The notes under the pieces are model-generated. The model saw only the letters and a program-made list of their open reading frames with translations, made no database searches and was not told the DNA's origin. Below, piece by piece: positions 10,574 to 14,984 of a DNA stretch of 30,962 bases (within the stretch, counting starts at the first letter, position 1; the number at the start of each line of letters is the position of its first letter). Source of the stretch: a virus; the UHGV virus genome UHGV-1558343; one strand, given 5' to 3'. A program made the position numbers and the translations under genes.

Positions 10574-10656
10574 TGGCATGGGACGGAGGAGTTGAACCCC
10601 TTTGAAACGGTGTTGGAAGCCGTTGCTCATGCCTTAGAGTCTTAACATCGTCCCAT
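10574..10656 (-). tRNA. tRNA-Trp(CCA) with enlarged D region
   Basis: perfect acceptor ATGGGAC/GTCCCAT; anticodon loop UUCCAAC; T-loop TTCAACT; about 27 nt between anticodon stem and acceptor where about 20 are expected. Confidence 0.6.
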
Positions 10657-10799: not shown

Positions 10800-10881
10800 T
10801 GGTCGAGGCGGCAGGACTCGAACCCGCATACTCCACTTACTCGGTTAACGGCTGTTTAGAAGACAGCTGAGATACGCCCCG
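10800..10881 (-). tRNA. atypical tRNA-like gene, anticodon UCU (Arg-type); no recognisable D-arm
   Basis: T-arm GCGGG/TTCGAGT/CCTGC; acceptor CGGGGCG/CGCCTCG; anticodon arm GCTGT-CUUCUAA-ACAGC; only 7 nt between acceptor and anticodon stem; 23 nt between anticodon stem and T-stem. Confidence 0.5.
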
Positions 10882-11128
10882 TAATTATCTTTAAAGACTC
10901 TCTTAGAAAGCCCTTAAAGATGCCCACCTTATTAATCATACCGTGGGCTAGTACGCCAAATTCTTTGATGAGGGATTGGAAGACCTCACTGGTGTTTAGC
11001 CTATCAAGCTACTGCCAGAAAAACATTGTCGTTTGCATTTATTTTAAATTTGCAAAATAGACGCTACGCAACGAAAACTAAGGTTACTATAAAGTAGTCA
11101 CATCTCAATGTCAACAACTTTTTGAAAT

Positions 11129-12364: not shown

Positions 12365-12793
12365 TCATGTACCATTTCTTAGATACTTCTTCCTACGTCT
12401 TTCTGGACTATAGTTTCTTCTACTCTCAGCATTCTTAGCCAGCCTACACTCATCGCATCTACAGCCTTTAAAATAGCTATACGCAGTTCCGTGTTTAATT
12501 GTTTTATGTTTTCTTTCACTTATCTGTGCTGGTCTTGCTGCTTTCATGTTACATTTAAGATGACTATAAGAAATATTATCTAGTGAAAAGAAAAGCTCTT
12601 TTGCATTCTCACTATGTCTCCACGGAATCTTATGCTCGATAGAGAAATCATCCCTAGTCATTTCTTTTCCGCACTGAAAACATCTATTTTGATTTGTCTT
12701 ACATATAAAATCGAATAGCAAATCTTTTACTAGTCTGTTTTGTGCAGTTCCCAAACTCATACCAAGTTGTGATTTGTATACTTCATCTCTCAT
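12365..12793 (-). CDS. HNH homing endonuclease
   Basis: CFQCG ... EHKIPW ... HLKCN motif set; C-terminal Cys/Arg-rich segment GCRCDECR; ORF track start overlaps tRNA-Tyr so internal ATG at 12791-12793 is proposed. Confidence 0.8.
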   Translation of the reverse strand: MRDEVYKSQLGMSLGTAQNRLVKDLLFDFICKTNQNRCFQCGKEMTRDDFSIEHKIPWRHSENAKELFFSLDNISYSHLKCNMKAARPAQISERKHKTIKHGTAYSYFKGCRCDECRLAKNAESRRNYSPERRRKKYLRNGT

Positions 12794-12815
12794 AACTAAG
12801 TATCTCGCTAAGTGT

Positions 12816-12903
12816 TGGTGTGCCGTGTAGGAGTCGAACCTACCGAGTCTCAATGACAAGGGATTTACAGTCCCCACCGCTACCATCTACGGGATAACGA
12901 CAC
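12816..12903 (-). tRNA. tRNA-Tyr(GUA), class II
   Basis: 88 nt; anticodon loop CUGUAAA; long variable region; acceptor GTGTCGT/ACGGCAC; CCA encoded. Confidence 0.75.
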
Positions 12904-13568: not shown

Positions 13569-14984
13569 TTACCAGATGTAACGGTCAATCATTACTGCTT
13601 TGAGCATTACGCTGATTGGGTCAAACTTCTCACCACCAAGCAGAGCTTTTAAAGTGGCTGGAGAGAAACCAGATACCATTGCTACACCGTTATCCTTAAC
13701 AGATACTTCGCAAGTTCCATTACGGTTTGCTAAGTACCAAAATACTAGTTGTGGCATATCATATCCAGCTTTTTTGTACTTACTCTGAATTGCTTCAAAG
13801 TTTGTACGACCGTTAGCCCCATCAACCTGATTGAACTCCATATCGGAGAAGATGATAAGCTTACTTGGCATATCTTTCTGAGTCAAGTTGTTTCTTTTAC
13901 CTGTCTCAAGAATACGGTCAAAAGCCACTTGTAAGTTAGTTGAGCCATATTCAACGTTTCGCATCACCTGACGATGACGGTTTCGTAAATCACCACTCAG
14001 TTCGATGAAGTGAGGGTTTGTTGAATAAACCATCAACTCATTCTTAAAGCAACCTGTATTGCGTTCTGCTACATACAAGGCAAGTGATACACCAATATCA
14101 AGGGCGGTGATTGAGCCAAGATTCACCCAAGACATTGAGCTTGAAACATCAGTCATACACAAGATGTTTTCACCTTCTGCCATCCAGTTTGGTAGTGCTT
14201 TCCACTGCTCATTGGCAACATCTGCATTACCATGCTTAACAGATTTAATCACATCGTATGGGTAAACAGCACCAGCATTAATCTTAGCCTCACCCTTTGA
14301 TAAGGACTCAATGTAAGCTTTGTAGCGTTCTCCATCTTTACGGTTAAACAGTTTTTGGTAACGTGCAGCAGCAAGTGAAGGAATCTTACTGTAGTCAATC
14401 TTACCAAACTCATTAGCAGAGATTTTTTGCTCAACTGTATCAGATAGTGCAGACAACAGTGTGCGGTACTCTTTCTCGCTTAAGTTTGCAAACTTACAGA
14501 AACGTTTTACAAACTGTTTGTGGCGTGGTTTTACTCGTGGCAACCACTTAGCTGCTAAACCTGCTGTTGCAGGGTCTAGTAATGCTGCTTCTAAATGTTT
14601 GAAGGCATCTGTCTCGAAACGAGTACCTACGAAGATTTTGAAGTCATCAAAACGACCAAGTTCTGCAATCTTATCCATAATGCGAAGAACCTGTGTAGGC
14701 TCTAAAACTTTATCTTCAATCGCTTGAAGTAAAACAGTTCTGAAAGCTTTACGCTCACCCATACCTTCTCGTACATCTCGCATGTGAAGCAAAATACGAA
14801 CTGCAACATCAACATCCTCACGCAAAGCTTTGTAGAACAAGTCTGGTAAGATTTCTACATTGCTACGGCTGGAACCAGCAGCTTTGTAAAAGTCCACAAG
14901 AGCAGACATTGATGAAGTATGGTTTACAGCACCATTTTCAGTTCGACCTGCATGAAGGTGCGCATGTTTAAATAATTCGCTCAT
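13569..14984 (-). CDS. von Willebrand factor A (vWA) domain protein with MIDAS motif, DUF2828-like
   Basis: 471 aa; DVSSS (DxSxS) MIDAS motif in C-terminal half; N-terminal GRTENGA motif; largely helical N-terminal region; family assignment from memory. Confidence 0.65.
   Translation of the reverse strand: MSELFKHAHLHAGRTENGAVNHTSSMSALVDFYKAAGSSRSNVEILPDLFYKALREDVDVAVRILLHMRDVREGMGERKAFRTVLLQAIEDKVLEPTQVLRIMDKIAELGRFDDFKIFVGTRFETDAFKHLEAALLDPATAGLAAKWLPRVKPRHKQFVKRFCKFANLSEKEYRTLLSALSDTVEQKISANEFGKIDYSKIPSLAAARYQKLFNRKDGERYKAYIESLSKGEAKINAGAVYPYDVIKSVKHGNADVANEQWKALPNWMAEGENILCMTDVSSSMSWVNLGSITALDIGVSLALYVAERNTGCFKNELMVYSTNPHFIELSGDLRNRHRQVMRNVEYGSTNLQVAFDRILETGKRNNLTQKDMPSKLIIFSDMEFNQVDGANGRTNFEAIQSKYKKAGYDMPQLVFWYLANRNGTCEVSVKDNGVAMVSGFSPATLKALLGGEKFDPISVMLKAVMIDRYIW

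What the first reader, a model, noticed from the sequence alone, without database searches (positions are those of the whole stretch)
10800..10881. tRNA-like gene with Arg-type anticodon UCU but no D-arm and a 23-nt insertion before the T-arm
Acceptor stem (CGGGGCG/CGCCTCG), T-arm and a perfect 5-bp anticodon stem with loop CUUCUAA are all present, yet only 7 nt separate acceptor and anticodon stems, and 23 nt lie between the anticodon stem and the T-stem. This is not a standard type I or type II cloverleaf. It could be a D-armless tRNA, a tRNA-derived regulatory RNA, or a decaying gene.
Basis: seen in the sequence. Interest (0 to 1): 0.55.

Follow-up and report, generated by a model that had tools for sequence, protein, structure and literature searches.

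The report
Phage arginine tRNA with rewired core
This is not a decaying gene but a conserved phage arginine tRNA whose D region is wired in a different order from the universal cloverleaf, one member of a large and apparently undescribed family of such tRNAs (arginine and isoleucine) found almost only in phages.

Summary
On the minus strand, 10881->10800 has a 7-bp acceptor stem, a T arm, a 5-bp anticodon stem with loop CUUCUAA, 7 nt before the anticodon arm and 23 nt after it, plus ACCA. "No D-arm" is only half right. Covariation in more than 100 distinct homologues shows that C11-U12-C13 of the 7-nt segment pairs with G40-A41-G42 of the 23-nt segment. This D-like stem encloses the anticodon arm. 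An invariant D-loop-like strand (UAAgUGGAGUAU) then runs straight into the T stem.

The element occurs in 263 GenBank phage records from unrelated groups and in hundreds of viral contigs. It is absent from 5,426 E. coli genomes. In some Felixounaviruses a canonical tRNA-Arg(UCU) occupies the same slot.

Of 181 parsed members, 134 carry arginine anticodons, 133 of them with A at the position-20 equivalent. Another 44 carry isoleucine anticodons, 43 with U there and all with A73. AGA is 46% of the window's arginine codons, and no canonical tRNA-Arg(UCU) is present.

Best reading: a working non-cloverleaf tRNA-Arg(UCU). Expression, charging and 3D shape are untested. I found no prior description.

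The parts
10800..10881 (-). Whole gene for the rewired-core tRNA-Arg(UCU), 82 nt including the encoded discriminator A and CCA
   Evidence: Sequence; family covariance model R1 scores 99.7 bits; Rfam tRNA 31.2 bits with the D arm deleted
10875..10881 (-). Acceptor stem, 5' strand (CGGGGCG, element positions 1-7)
   Evidence: All 7 pairs show changes on both sides; 99.4% of cells paired
10872..10874 (-). Invariant linker U8-A9-U10 between the acceptor stem and the D-like stem
   Evidence: Invariant in 49 of 49 sequences. The retrieval pattern did not constrain this segment
10869..10871 (-). D-like stem, 5' strand (C11-U12-C13)
   Evidence: Pairs with positions 42-40. 11-42 is CG in 49/49; 12-41 is UA 35, AU 8, GC 6; 13-40 is CG 41, GC 5, UA 3; none unpaired. 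Confirmed in an independent set
10868..10868 (-). Single spacer nucleotide (A14) between the D-like stem and the anticodon stem, opposite C39; the position-26-like site
   Evidence: The spacer is exactly 1 nt in 178 of 181 members. Spacer and opposite base are C.A in 88 and A.C in 41
10851..10867 (-). Anticodon arm: stem GCUGU/ACAGC, loop CUUCUAA (10862-10856), anticodon UCU at 10860-10858
   Evidence: All 5 stem pairs covary. The loop is CUUCUAA in 41 of 49 sequences
10843..10850 (-). 3'-side bulge CGUUAACC (positions 32-39) between the anticodon stem and the 3' strand of the D-like stem; it sits where a variable loop would
   Evidence: CGUUAA is invariant in the strict subfamily, where the retrieval pattern imposed it. 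The bulge is 3-9 nt long and differs in sequence in divergent members
10840..10842 (-). D-like stem, 3' strand (G40-A41-G42)
   Evidence: Covaries with positions 13-11
10828..10839 (-). D-loop-like single strand UAAGUGGAGUAU (positions 43-54), with the GG and the following A (equivalents of G18, G19, A20), running directly into the T stem
   Evidence: UAAnUGGA is kept even in divergent members found by the covariance model alone. The base after GG is A in 133 of 134 Arg-anticodon members and U in 43 of 44 Ile-anticodon members
10811..10827 (-). T arm: stem GCGGG/CCUGC, loop UUCGAGU
   Evidence: 98.8% of cells paired, 4 of 5 pairs with changes on both sides. T loop is UUCGAGU or UUCGAAU in 42 of 49
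10800..10810 (-). Acceptor stem 3' strand CGCCUCG (10810-10804), discriminator A (10803), encoded CCA (10802-10800)
   Evidence: Discriminator is G in 30, A in 18, C in 1; CCA is encoded in 38 of 49
11086..11114 (-). Sigma-70-like promoter TTGACA-17-TATAGT, the nearest upstream promoter-like site on the same strand. It probably drives the tmRNA-like RNA and this tRNA as one transcript (inferred)
   Evidence: 11 of 12 consensus matches; no terminator-like site between it and the tRNA

Best explanation
The element is a gene for a translationally active tRNA-Arg(UCU) whose core is wired differently from the cloverleaf.

Shown:
- The RNA has four helices arranged as a three-way junction. These are the acceptor stem, the T arm, and one long arm in which a 3-bp D-like stem (C11-U12-C13 with G40-A41-G42) encloses the anticodon arm.
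- Exactly one nucleotide lies between the D-like 5' strand and the anticodon stem.
- A bulge lies on the 3' side.
- A D-loop-like strand (UAAgUGGAG...) leads from the D-like stem straight into the T stem.

Inferred:
- The long arm stacks as 5 (anticodon stem) + 1 (A.C) + 3 (plus perhaps U10.U43) layers, close to the 10 layers of a normal D-plus-anticodon arm.
- The GG of the D-loop-like strand docks on the T loop, giving an L-like shape.
- The following A is presented to arginyl-tRNA synthetase as A20.
- In effect, blocks [10-21] and [22-48] of a normal tRNA are in swapped order.
- The RNA is transcribed with the tRNA array, trimmed by RNase P, charged with arginine and used to read AGA. AGA is the phage's commonest arginine codon.
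- The selective reason for the rewiring is unknown. The likeliest guess is escape from a host nuclease or surveillance pathway that recognises the normal tRNA core.
For: Structure:
- 94.8% of cells are paired, against 33-47% when partners are slid; 0 of 500 shuffles reach the observed values; 19 of 21 pairs change on both sides.
- An independent set of 62 distinct sequences repeats this at 93.8%.
- The highest mutual-information column pairs are exactly these helices.

Not a pseudogene:
- 263 GenBank phage records from Felixounavirus, Justusliebigvirus, Asteriusvirus, Mydovirus, T5-like Klebsiella phages, Kolesnikvirus and Streptomyces phages carry it.
- More than 120 viral contigs were returned by each relaxed scan.

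Same job as tRNA-Arg(UCU):
- In MET-P1-301, Henu12 and KMM4 a canonical 77-nt tRNA-Arg(UCU) sits in the same slot between near-identical flanks.
- None of 24 arrays with 9 or more tRNAs that carry the element has a canonical-length tRNA-Arg(UCU).
- The window has Arg(ACG) but no Arg(UCU), while AGA is 46% of its Arg codons at 19.6 per 1000.

Identity signals:
- Of 181 unique members, 134 have Arg anticodons (UCU, ACG, CCU, CCG, GCG, UCG, all with C35), and 133 of these have A after GG.
- 44 have Ile anticodons, 43 with U after GG and 44 of 44 with A73.
- These match the published rules: A20, C35 and A/G73 for Arg; A73 and A35 for Ile (PMC9976931).
- The anticodon loops keep U33 and A37. CCA is encoded, as in neighbouring tRNAs.

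Feasibility: E. coli HisRS, EF-Tu and the ribosome accept a D-arm-less tRNA without adaptation (PMC11551756).
Against: - There are no expression, processing, aminoacylation or decoding data.
- The L-shape and the position-by-position mapping are geometric inference.
- The minimum-free-energy fold does not give the covariation structure: -24.0 against -21.0 kcal/mol, z-score -0.14.
- One contig (L046) has a canonical tRNA-Arg(UCU) next to the rewired one, so the two are not strictly exclusive.
- 26 of 134 Arg-class members have U73 rather than A/G73.
- In the ACG subclass the third D-like pair is often C.A, leaving only two Watson-Crick pairs.
- Bas63 tRNA genes were scored mostly non-essential on laboratory hosts (PMC11482910).
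- The retrieval patterns fixed several conserved motifs, so the apparent invariance of those motifs is partly imposed.
Confidence: 0.65

Rival explanations
1. It is a tRNA-shaped RNA that is not used for decoding. It could be a decoy or sponge for a host enzyme that attacks or binds tRNA-Arg and tRNA-Ile, or a partner RNA (Y-RNA-like) for the phage's Ro60-like RNA-binding protein encoded upstream of the array.
For: - The Ro60-like gene (13569-14984, minus strand; Pfam DUF2828 + DUF7788; phrog_850 'RNA-binding protein') lies 2.7 kb upstream on the same strand.
- PhageMaP suggests that some Bas63 'tRNAs' may be Y RNAs (PMC11482910).
- Homologues at 32-43% identity lie within 0.3-5.5 kb of rewired tRNAs in 11 contigs outside the close Felix O1-like group.
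- Bacterial Y RNAs are known tRNA mimics with altered topology (PMC4201824).
- Phage tRNAs are known to counter tRNA-targeting defences (PMC10264068, PMC11464382).
Against: - Only 20 of 289 loci (7%) have the protein in the fetched flanks.
- The element has no GNCGAA(N)G Ro-binding motif. Its termini form a 7-bp acceptor stem with NCCA rather than a Ro-binding stem.
- A decoy would not need the position-20 base and the discriminator to switch together with the anticodon's amino acid.
- It would not be expected to fill the empty AGA-decoder slot of the arrays.
Confidence: 0.2
2. The gene is a precursor that RNA processing (cutting and re-ligation, for example by phage RNA repair enzymes) rearranges into a canonical cloverleaf tRNA, as happens for the permuted tRNA genes of algae and archaea.
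For: The block order equals a normal tRNA with two adjacent blocks swapped (inference). Permuted tRNA genes that mature into normal tRNAs exist (PMC3978253, PMC3218864).
Against: - The acceptor strands are in normal order at the two ends of the gene.
- No bulge-helix-bulge motif was identified.
- Restoring the canonical order would need two cuts and two ligations inside a folded core.
- The D-like stem, the 1-nt spacer and the A.C/C.A site are conserved as a structure in the unprocessed order.
Confidence: 0.05
3. It is the alanine-accepting tRNA-like domain of a phage tmRNA, working together with the tag-encoding tmRNA-like RNA immediately upstream.
For: - The window's copy has G3.U70, G2-C71 and A73.
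- Rfam tmRNA and permuted-tmRNA models give sub-threshold hits upstream, and a tag frame ANDNVFLAVA* lies at 11036-11004.
- ARAGORN reported a tmRNA in the relative Moogle (PMC4319497).
Against: - G3.U70 occurs in only 9 of 49 family members.
- The element has a full anticodon arm with arginine anticodons.
- The same tag module is followed by an ordinary tRNA-Arg in MET-P1-301 and Henu12 and by tRNA-Leu in phiEa21-4.
- In outra, SP27, Riker and KB57 the element's annotated neighbours are ordinary tRNA and protein genes, not the Felix arrangement; the flanks were not scanned for the tag module.
- ARAGORN finds no tmRNA here even at relaxed thresholds.
Confidence: 0.03
4. It is a decaying or rearranged tRNA pseudogene with no function.
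For: Standard tRNA finders reject it. One truncated copy exists (L081:1458-1536).
Against: - Compensatory substitutions occur in all four helices across unrelated phage groups.
- The anticodon loop and D-loop-like strand are invariant.
- Isotype-specific identity positions are kept.
- Tandem sets of two or three rewired Arg tRNAs occur in single phages (L112, L125, L103, L104).
Confidence: 0.02

Closest known systems
Canonical bacterial and phage tRNA-Arg(UCU) (for example the allele in Escherichia phage MET-P1-301, or E. coli argU)
   Same: Same genomic slot in Felixounaviruses. Same anticodon loop CUUCUAA, 7-bp acceptor stem, T arm, encoded CCA and A/G discriminator. The D-loop sequence is similar: AAUUGGAUA against AAGUGGAGUA.
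   Different: The canonical form has its D hairpin between the acceptor and anticodon arms, and a 5-nt variable loop. Here the D-like stem encloses the anticodon arm and the D-loop-like strand lies after it, giving a three-way rather than a four-way junction. The family model scores canonical tRNA-Arg(UCU) at only 15-23 bits.
D-arm-less tRNAs: metazoan mitochondrial tRNA-Ser(AGY) and the engineered E. coli 'mini HisT' (PMC11551756, PMC7609411)
   Same: Only a few nucleotides lie between the acceptor and anticodon stems. These tRNAs show that a tRNA lacking a normal D hairpin can be charged and can decode.
   Different: Those tRNAs lack both the D stem and the D-loop/T-loop contact. This family keeps a covarying D-like stem and the GG-containing D-loop-like strand. 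It is found in phages of bacteria, not in mitochondria.
Topologically altered tRNA mimics: bacterial Y RNAs YrlA and Yrn1 (PMC4201824), and plant-virus tRNA-like structures (from general knowledge)
   Same: Recognisable T-arm and D-loop features are joined in a non-tRNA strand order. There is a phage association, and in this window a Ro60-like gene lies nearby.
   Different: Y RNAs have their ends in a Ro-binding stem with a GNCGAA motif, a closed 'acceptor' hairpin and no functional anticodon. This family has an open acceptor stem with NCCA and an isotype-consistent anticodon loop.
Circularly permuted tRNA genes of red algae and archaea (PMC3978253, PMC3218864)
   Same: Parts of the tRNA are encoded in a non-standard order.
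   Different: There the 3' half precedes the 5' half and processing restores a normal cloverleaf. Here the ends are in normal order and only internal blocks are swapped, with structure conserved in that order.
tmRNA tRNA-like domain
   Same: An acceptor/T-arm unit with a degenerate D region. The window copy happens to have G3.U70, and a tmRNA-like tag RNA lies next door.
   Different: G3.U70 is not conserved (9 of 49). A full anticodon arm is present, and no mRNA-like domain is inserted.

Membership tests
Canonical elongator tRNA (cloverleaf; Rfam RF00005) | 7-bp acceptor stem with discriminator and CCA end | tested here: met
   CGGGGCG/CGCCUCG + A + CCA; 99.4% of cells paired with covariation in all 7 pairs
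Canonical elongator tRNA (cloverleaf; Rfam RF00005) | T arm (5 bp, 7-nt loop UUCRANY) and anticodon arm (5 bp, 7-nt loop with U33 and purine 37) | tested here: met
   T loop UUCGAGU; anticodon loop CUUCUAA
Canonical elongator tRNA (cloverleaf; Rfam RF00005) | [quoted passage not shown] | tested here: not met
   Only UAUCUCA lies there. Rfam aligns the element only by deleting the D arm. The D-like stem pairs across the anticodon arm
Canonical elongator tRNA (cloverleaf; Rfam RF00005) | Variable region that is either 4-5 nt or a self-contained hairpin (type II) | tested here: not met
   23 nt. Its variable columns covary with positions 12 and 13, not within the segment
Canonical elongator tRNA (cloverleaf; Rfam RF00005) | Detection by standard tools at curated thresholds | tested here: inconclusive
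   Not listed in the gathering-threshold scan. Scores 31.2 bits against a cut-off of 29 in a local E-value scan. ARAGORN is negative. GenBank records carry either 'tRNA-OTHER' or no annotation
Canonical elongator tRNA (cloverleaf; Rfam RF00005) | Aminoacylation and codon reading on the ribosome | not testable with these tools
   Only indirect support: identity positions track the anticodon, and the element fills the empty AGA-decoder slot
D-arm-less (mitochondrial-type) tRNA | No D stem and no D-loop/T-loop GG contact; a short replacement loop only | tested here: not met
   A covarying D-like stem and an invariant UGG(A/U) strand are present
tmRNA tRNA-like domain | Conserved G3.U70 alanine identity pair, no anticodon arm, mRNA-like domain inserted between the two halves | tested here: not met
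   G3.U70 in 9 of 49. A full anticodon arm is present. ARAGORN tmRNA search is negative
YrlA-type bacterial Y RNA | 5' GNCGAA(N)G Ro-binding motif; termini in the Ro-binding stem; closed acceptor-like hairpin between the T and D arms | tested here: not met
   Motif absent; termini form an acceptor stem with NCCA (definition from PMC4201824). No Rfam Y-RNA hit
YrlA-type bacterial Y RNA | Encoded within about 4 kb of a Ro60 orthologue on the same strand | tested here: inconclusive
   True in this window, at 2.7 kb. Across the family it holds for only 20 of 289 loci
Circularly permuted tRNA gene (algal or archaeal type) | 3' half encoded upstream of the 5' half, with a bulge-helix-bulge processing motif | tested here: not met
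   Acceptor 5' and 3' strands are at the gene's 5' and 3' ends. No such motif was noticed; this was not searched formally
Rewired-core phage tRNA family (defined here; model R1) | G-UAU-C(NN) ... one spacer nucleotide ... anticodon arm ... 3-9 nt bulge ... (NN)G-UAAYUGG(A/U) ... T arm, with positions 11-13 pairing with 40-42 | tested here: met
   99.7 bits; family members score 45-103 bits, other tRNAs 35 or less; structure by covariation

The most novel reading that the evidence does not exclude
Phages of many lineages use a family of translationally active elongator tRNAs, for arginine and isoleucine, that do not have the cloverleaf topology. The D-stem strands and D loop are re-ordered around the anticodon arm, while the tertiary-contact and identity nucleotides (U8, GG, A20 or U20, and the 26.44-like mismatch) are kept. 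These would be the first natural non-cloverleaf tRNAs working in bacterial cytoplasmic translation. They would probably be maintained because the rewired core escapes a host tRNA-directed nuclease or decay pathway.
Probability: 0.5. Interest if true: 0.92.

Novelty: new variant of a known kind. Interest (0 to 1): 0.85.

Why it matters
Reviews and recent experimental papers state that all known bacterial (cytosolic) tRNAs are cloverleaves and that armless tRNAs occur only in mitochondria (PMC11551756, PMC7609411).

If these RNAs are charged and decode, several things follow:
- The cloverleaf connectivity is not obligatory for ArgRS, IleRS, EF-Tu, RNase P and the bacterial ribosome. Only the spatial arrangement of a few elements would be.
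- This would be a natural experiment in tRNA topology with hundreds of sequence variants.
- It would mean a blind spot in tRNAscan-SE and ARAGORN annotation of phage genomes, where AGA and AUA decoders are being missed. That skews analyses of phage tRNA complements and codon usage.
- It would give a new candidate route by which phages evade tRNA-targeting immunity.
- It would offer a possible scaffold for orthogonal tRNAs.

Even if the RNAs do not decode, this is a large, strongly conserved, previously unannotated class of structured phage RNA.

Tried and rejected
1. **tmRNA tRNA-like domain charged with alanine.** Suggested by G3.U70 in the window copy and the tmRNA-like tag RNA upstream. Rejected because G3.U70 is present in only 9 of 49 members, and the tag module also occurs upstream of ordinary tRNAs.
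2. **Type II tRNA with a long variable arm.** The 23-nt segment has no internally covarying hairpin.
3. **A shifted register giving a normal cloverleaf.** Neither Rfam, nor ARAGORN at default and relaxed settings or with introns allowed, finds one.
4. **Thermodynamic folding.** The MFE pairs CUC with the invariant GAG of UGGAG, which covariation contradicts. The z-score of -0.14 is uninformative.
5. **Y RNA.** The motif and the position of the termini do not fit, and the Ro60-like gene is near only 7% of loci.
6. **Protein-coding explanation.** Only ORFs of 64 aa or less overlap the locus.
7. **Host origin.** No match in 5,426 complete E. coli genomes. Only 4 MAG contigs among 185,579 species representatives.
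8. **Extra tertiary covariation among unpaired columns.** None found.
9. **Rewired Ile(UAU) form in cultured phages.** No match for the one sequence tried.
10. **Nine literature searches** (the eight bearing on this element are) and the non-canonical-tRNA review gave no description of this topology. Subscription-only literature was not searchable.
Full report
**1. The observation**

The window is a Felix O1-like phage, 92-99% identical to Felixounavirus genomes. It carries a minus-strand array of 25 ARAGORN-detectable tRNAs. On the minus strand, 10881->10800 reads:

CGGGGCG UAUCUCA GCUGU CUUCUAA ACAGC CGUUAACCGAGUAAGUGGAGUAU GCGGG UUCGAGU CCUGC CGCCUCG A CCA.

- ARAGORN misses the element, even at relaxed thresholds.
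- Rfam's gathering-threshold scan does not list it.
- A local E-value scan gives tRNA at 31.2 bits, but only by deleting the D arm (4 nt where the model has 15) and inserting 20 nt before the T arm.
- Only ORFs of 64 aa or less overlap the locus.

**2. It is conserved, widespread and phage-specific**

The 82-nt element occurs at 85-100% identity in 263 GenBank phage records. These span unrelated groups:

- Felixounavirus
- Justusliebigvirus (outra)
- the 350-kb Asteriusvirus (SP27)
- Mydovirus (KB57)
- T5-like Klebsiella phages (Riker)
- Kolesnikvirus (Ep030)
- 131-kb Streptomyces phages (Genie2)

Where it is annotated at all, it is labelled 'tRNA-OTHER'.

An exact-pattern scan found 65 viral contigs. 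Only 4 contigs, all from MAGs, matched among representatives of 185,579 bacterial and archaeal species. None of 5,426 complete E. coli genomes has a match.

**3. The secondary structure**

An ungapped alignment of 49 distinct sequences (A3) supports four helices. Overall 94.8% of cells are paired, against 33-47% when the partners are slid by 1-3 columns. No shuffle out of 500 reaches the observed values, and 19 of 21 pairs change on both sides.

| Pair | Pair types in 49 sequences | Unpaired |
|---|---|---|
| C11-G42 | CG 49 | 0 |
| 12-41 | UA 35, AU 8, GC 6 | 0 |
| 13-40 | CG 41, GC 5, UA 3 | 0 |

The retrieval pattern left columns 38-41 free, so it did not impose this result. The highest mutual-information column pairs are exactly the four helices.

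The MFE fold differs: it pairs CUC with the invariant GAG of UGGAG. It is only 3 kcal/mol better, which is uninformative for a tRNA core.

So the RNA is a three-way junction:

- the acceptor stem;
- a long arm in which a D-like stem encloses the anticodon arm;
- the T arm.

The strand UAAgUGGAGUAU runs from the D-like stem directly into the T stem.

**4. The family is much larger, and it tracks amino-acid identity**

A covariance model of A3 (R1) scores family members at 84-103 bits and ordinary tRNAs at 35 bits or less. Canonical tRNA-Arg(UCU) scores 15-23 bits.

Divergent members found by the model include forms with anticodon CCU, forms with shorter or different bulges, and one with anticodon ACG.

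A relaxed scan kept only GUAUC...GUAANUGGA...GUUCGA. The 67 model-aligned members have these anticodons:

| Anticodon | Count |
|---|---|
| UCU | 32 |
| ACG | 25 |
| CCU | 7 |
| CCG | 1 |
| GCG | 1 |
| GAU | 1 |

The D-like stem again covaries: 12-45 is CG 59, AU 2, UA 1; 13-44 is CG 26, GC 25, UA 8, AU 3.

That pattern fixed the A after GG, which could bias it toward arginine.

After filtering for paired acceptor, T and anticodon stems, 181 unique members from 177 loci remain:

| Class | n | Base after GG | Discriminator |
|---|---|---|---|
| Arg anticodons | 134 | A in 133 | G 57, A 50, U 26, C 1 |
| Ile anticodons (UAU 37, GAU 7) | 44 | U in 43 | A in 44 |
| CAU, UAC, GAA | 1 each | | |

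These are the published identity rules. A20, C35 and A/G73 define arginine, with A20 the main E. coli ArgRS determinant. A73 and A35 are determinants shared by isoleucine, valine and methionine (PMC9976931).

Further regularities:

- Exactly one nucleotide separates the D-like 5' strand from the anticodon stem in 178 of 181 members.
- That nucleotide and the base opposite it are C.A in 88 and A.C in 41.
- The 3'-side bulge varies from about 3 to 9 nt. In the Ile class it is usually 5 nt, AGAAA or UGAAA.
- Some phages carry two or three rewired Arg tRNAs in tandem (L112: CCG, CCU, UCU).

**5. Evidence that it does the job of tRNA-Arg(UCU)**

In MET-P1-301, Henu12 and the Mooglevirus KMM4, the same slot holds a canonical 77-nt tRNA-Arg(UCU). 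The slot lies between the near-invariant upstream tmRNA-like RNA and the downstream flank. The replacement is precise to within a few nucleotides of the gene ends.

Records at 95% identity or more number about 117 for the rewired allele and about 56 for the canonical one. The two alleles have different stems but the same anticodon loop, so the rewired cassette was imported rather than derived in place.

Among 24 arrays with 9 or more tRNAs that carry the rewired gene, none has a canonical-length tRNA-Arg(UCU), although most have Arg(ACG). One short contig (L046) has both.

In this window's ORFs of 100 codons or more, AGA is the commonest arginine codon: 46% of Arg codons, 19.6 per 1000. The window has no canonical tRNA-Arg(UCU).

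**6. How it probably works**

*Shown:* the helices, the one-nucleotide spacer, the conserved strand and the identity correlations.

*Inferred:*

- The anticodon stem (5 bp), the A.C/C.A site, the three D-like pairs and perhaps U10.U43 stack into an arm of about 9-10 layers. This is like the D stem + 26.44 + anticodon stem of a normal tRNA.
- The GG of UAAYUGG contacts the T loop, as G18 and G19 do.
- The next base is read as position 20.
- The final A-U before the T stem may stand for A21 and U48, the latter pairing with A15.
- U8-A9-U10 bridges from the acceptor stem to the elbow end of the D-like stem.

In canonical numbering the order is 8-9 / [22-25] / 26 / [27-43] / [44-48-like bulge] / [10-13] / [14-21] / [49-65]. 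That is, blocks [10-21] and [22-48] are swapped. A partial tandem duplication followed by two deletions could produce this.

An alternative position-by-position mapping (U8 A9 U10 C11... as canonical 8-13) fits the sequence equally well. It gives the same secondary structure, so the 3D assignment remains a hypothesis.

Feasibility is supported by the finding that E. coli HisRS, EF-Tu and the ribosome accept a D-arm-less tRNA as is, with PNPase-mediated decay the only barrier (PMC11551756).

Why the rewiring is maintained is unknown. Phage tRNAs are known to counter tRNA-targeting defences (PMC10264068, PMC11464382). P2 OLD cuts out the anticodon arm of several tRNAs, Arg among them (PMC12445682). 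Escape from such an enzyme, or from a decay pathway, is a reasonable guess but is untested.

**7. Rivals**

- **Non-decoding tRNA mimic (about 0.2).** This would be a decoy, or a partner of the Ro60-like RNA-binding protein at 13569-14984. It is not excluded. But that protein is near only 20 of 289 loci. The Y-RNA defining features are absent. A mimic would not need co-switching identity positions.
- **Processing back to a cloverleaf (about 0.05).** This would need two cuts and two ligations, and the structure is conserved in the unprocessed order.
- **tmRNA tRNA-like domain (about 0.03).** It fails on G3.U70, present in 9 of 49.
- **Pseudogene (about 0.02).** Refuted by covariation.

**8. Comparison with what is known**

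The element works like a tRNA-Arg. It meets the acceptor, T-arm, anticodon-arm and identity-nucleotide criteria. It fails two defining cloverleaf features: the position of the D hairpin and the nature of the variable region.

It is not a mitochondrial-type D-arm-less tRNA, because the D-like stem and GG are present. It is not type II, not a tmRNA domain, not a Y RNA and not an algal-type permuted gene.

A review of naturally non-canonical tRNAs mentions neither phages nor this topology (PMC7609411). A 2024 paper states that all known bacterial tRNAs are cloverleaves and that natural armless tRNAs are exclusively mitochondrial (PMC11551756). My literature searches found no description, and Rfam 15 has no matching family. 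Subscription-only literature could not be searched, so prior description cannot be fully excluded.

**9. Verdict**

- The structure claim is very secure.
- The functional claim (a working AGA-reading tRNA) is well supported indirectly but is untested.
- Novelty: a new variant of a known kind, namely a tRNA with a new core topology.
- Interest is high.

Noticed in passing
window 10883-11078 (minus strand); tag frame 11036-11004; promoter-like site 11114-11086: A tmRNA-like RNA lies directly upstream of the finding. Rfam tmRNA gives a sub-threshold hit (15.4 bits). There is a 10-codon tag frame, ANDNVFLAVA*, preceded by AAAAUAAAU as in E. coli ssrA.

The frame is conserved as AN[DE]xx[FY]LAVA* in Mooglevirus KMM4, Erwinia phage phiEa21-4, HK620 (between qut and the late terminator) and Kuttervirus Det7. 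Changes are synonymous at third positions, and the downstream helix and pseudoknot show compensatory changes (CCAA/UUGG, CCAG/CUGG, CCGA/UCGG).

Homologues occur in 626 phage records. I could not find a tRNA-like domain for it. This is probably what ARAGORN reported as 'ssrA' in Moogle, by borrowing the upstream tRNA-Ile 3' half.
   Followed up: partly
window 10574-10656 (minus strand): A second unannotated tRNA-like gene, about 83 nt. It has a 7-bp acceptor stem (AUGGGAC/GUCCCAU), discriminator G, encoded CCA, a T arm with one A.C mismatch and the anticodon loop UUCCAAC (CCA, Trp). About 26 nt lie between the acceptor and anticodon stems, so the D region is oversized.

ARAGORN and Rfam's tRNA model miss it. 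Trp is the only amino acid missing from the 25 detected tRNAs, so this element plus the rewired Arg would complete the set. wV8 has a different, 71-nt tRNA-Trp in the same slot.
   Followed up: partly
window 13569-14984 (minus strand): A 471-aa protein is encoded directly upstream of the tRNA array. It matches Pfam DUF2828 + DUF7788 and phrog_850 'RNA-binding protein', and has no sequence-level PDB match. It probably corresponds to Bas63 gp130, which a preprint reports as structurally Ro60-like and as a counter to the Ppl defence system (PMC11482910); the correspondence rests on position and was not checked by sequence. Homologues at 32-43% identity lie near rewired tRNAs in 11 contigs outside the close Felix O1-like group.
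   Followed up: partly
L040:4163-4256, L071:2516-2609, L057:6269-6364, L061:1612-1702; also L029:4627-4711, L028:7568-7652, L072:6269-6355, L057:6372-6457, L061:1255-1341: The same viral contigs carry tRNAs with a normal D arm plus an extra long variable arm, in isotypes that are never type II in bacteria: Ile(UAU) at 91-96 nt, and Lys(UUU), Asn(GUU), Trp(CCA) and Gln(UUG) at 85-87 nt.
   Followed up: no
L007:560-622 (Salmonella phage Det7): About 180 nt upstream of Det7's tmRNA-like tag module lies a compact tRNA-like piece, with no anticodon arm that I could identify. It has a 7-bp acceptor stem GGUGAGG/CCUCGCC (U3.G70, not G3.U70), a T arm GUGUGG-UUCGAUU-CCACAC and no encoded CCA. It could be the acceptor piece of a two-piece tmRNA-like RNA.
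   Followed up: no
L005:522-596, L055:2806-2882, L018:928-997 and 2598-2672, L020:262-337, L064:5383-5457: ARAGORN reports tRNAs with 4-base anticodons (gata, gtca) or 2-base anticodons (ga, gt) in relatives' arrays. That means 8-nt or 6-nt anticodon loops, in positions where close relatives have normal tRNA-Ile or tRNA-Asp.
   Followed up: no
L081:1458-1536; L095:2425-2504: L081 has a truncated copy of the rewired Arg tRNA (the T arm is replaced by unrelated sequence) next to an intact divergent copy at 2103-2182. L095 has a rewired member with anticodon GAU, UGGUU in place of UGGA, and a T-stem mismatch.
   Followed up: partly
window 12365-12886 (minus strand); L011:798-1307: HNH homing-endonuclease genes are interspersed in the tRNA array. 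One is a weak Pfam HNH hit in the window. Another lies immediately downstream of the rewired tRNA in Klebsiella phage Riker. They are a possible vehicle for the cassette-like exchange of tRNA alleles.
   Followed up: no
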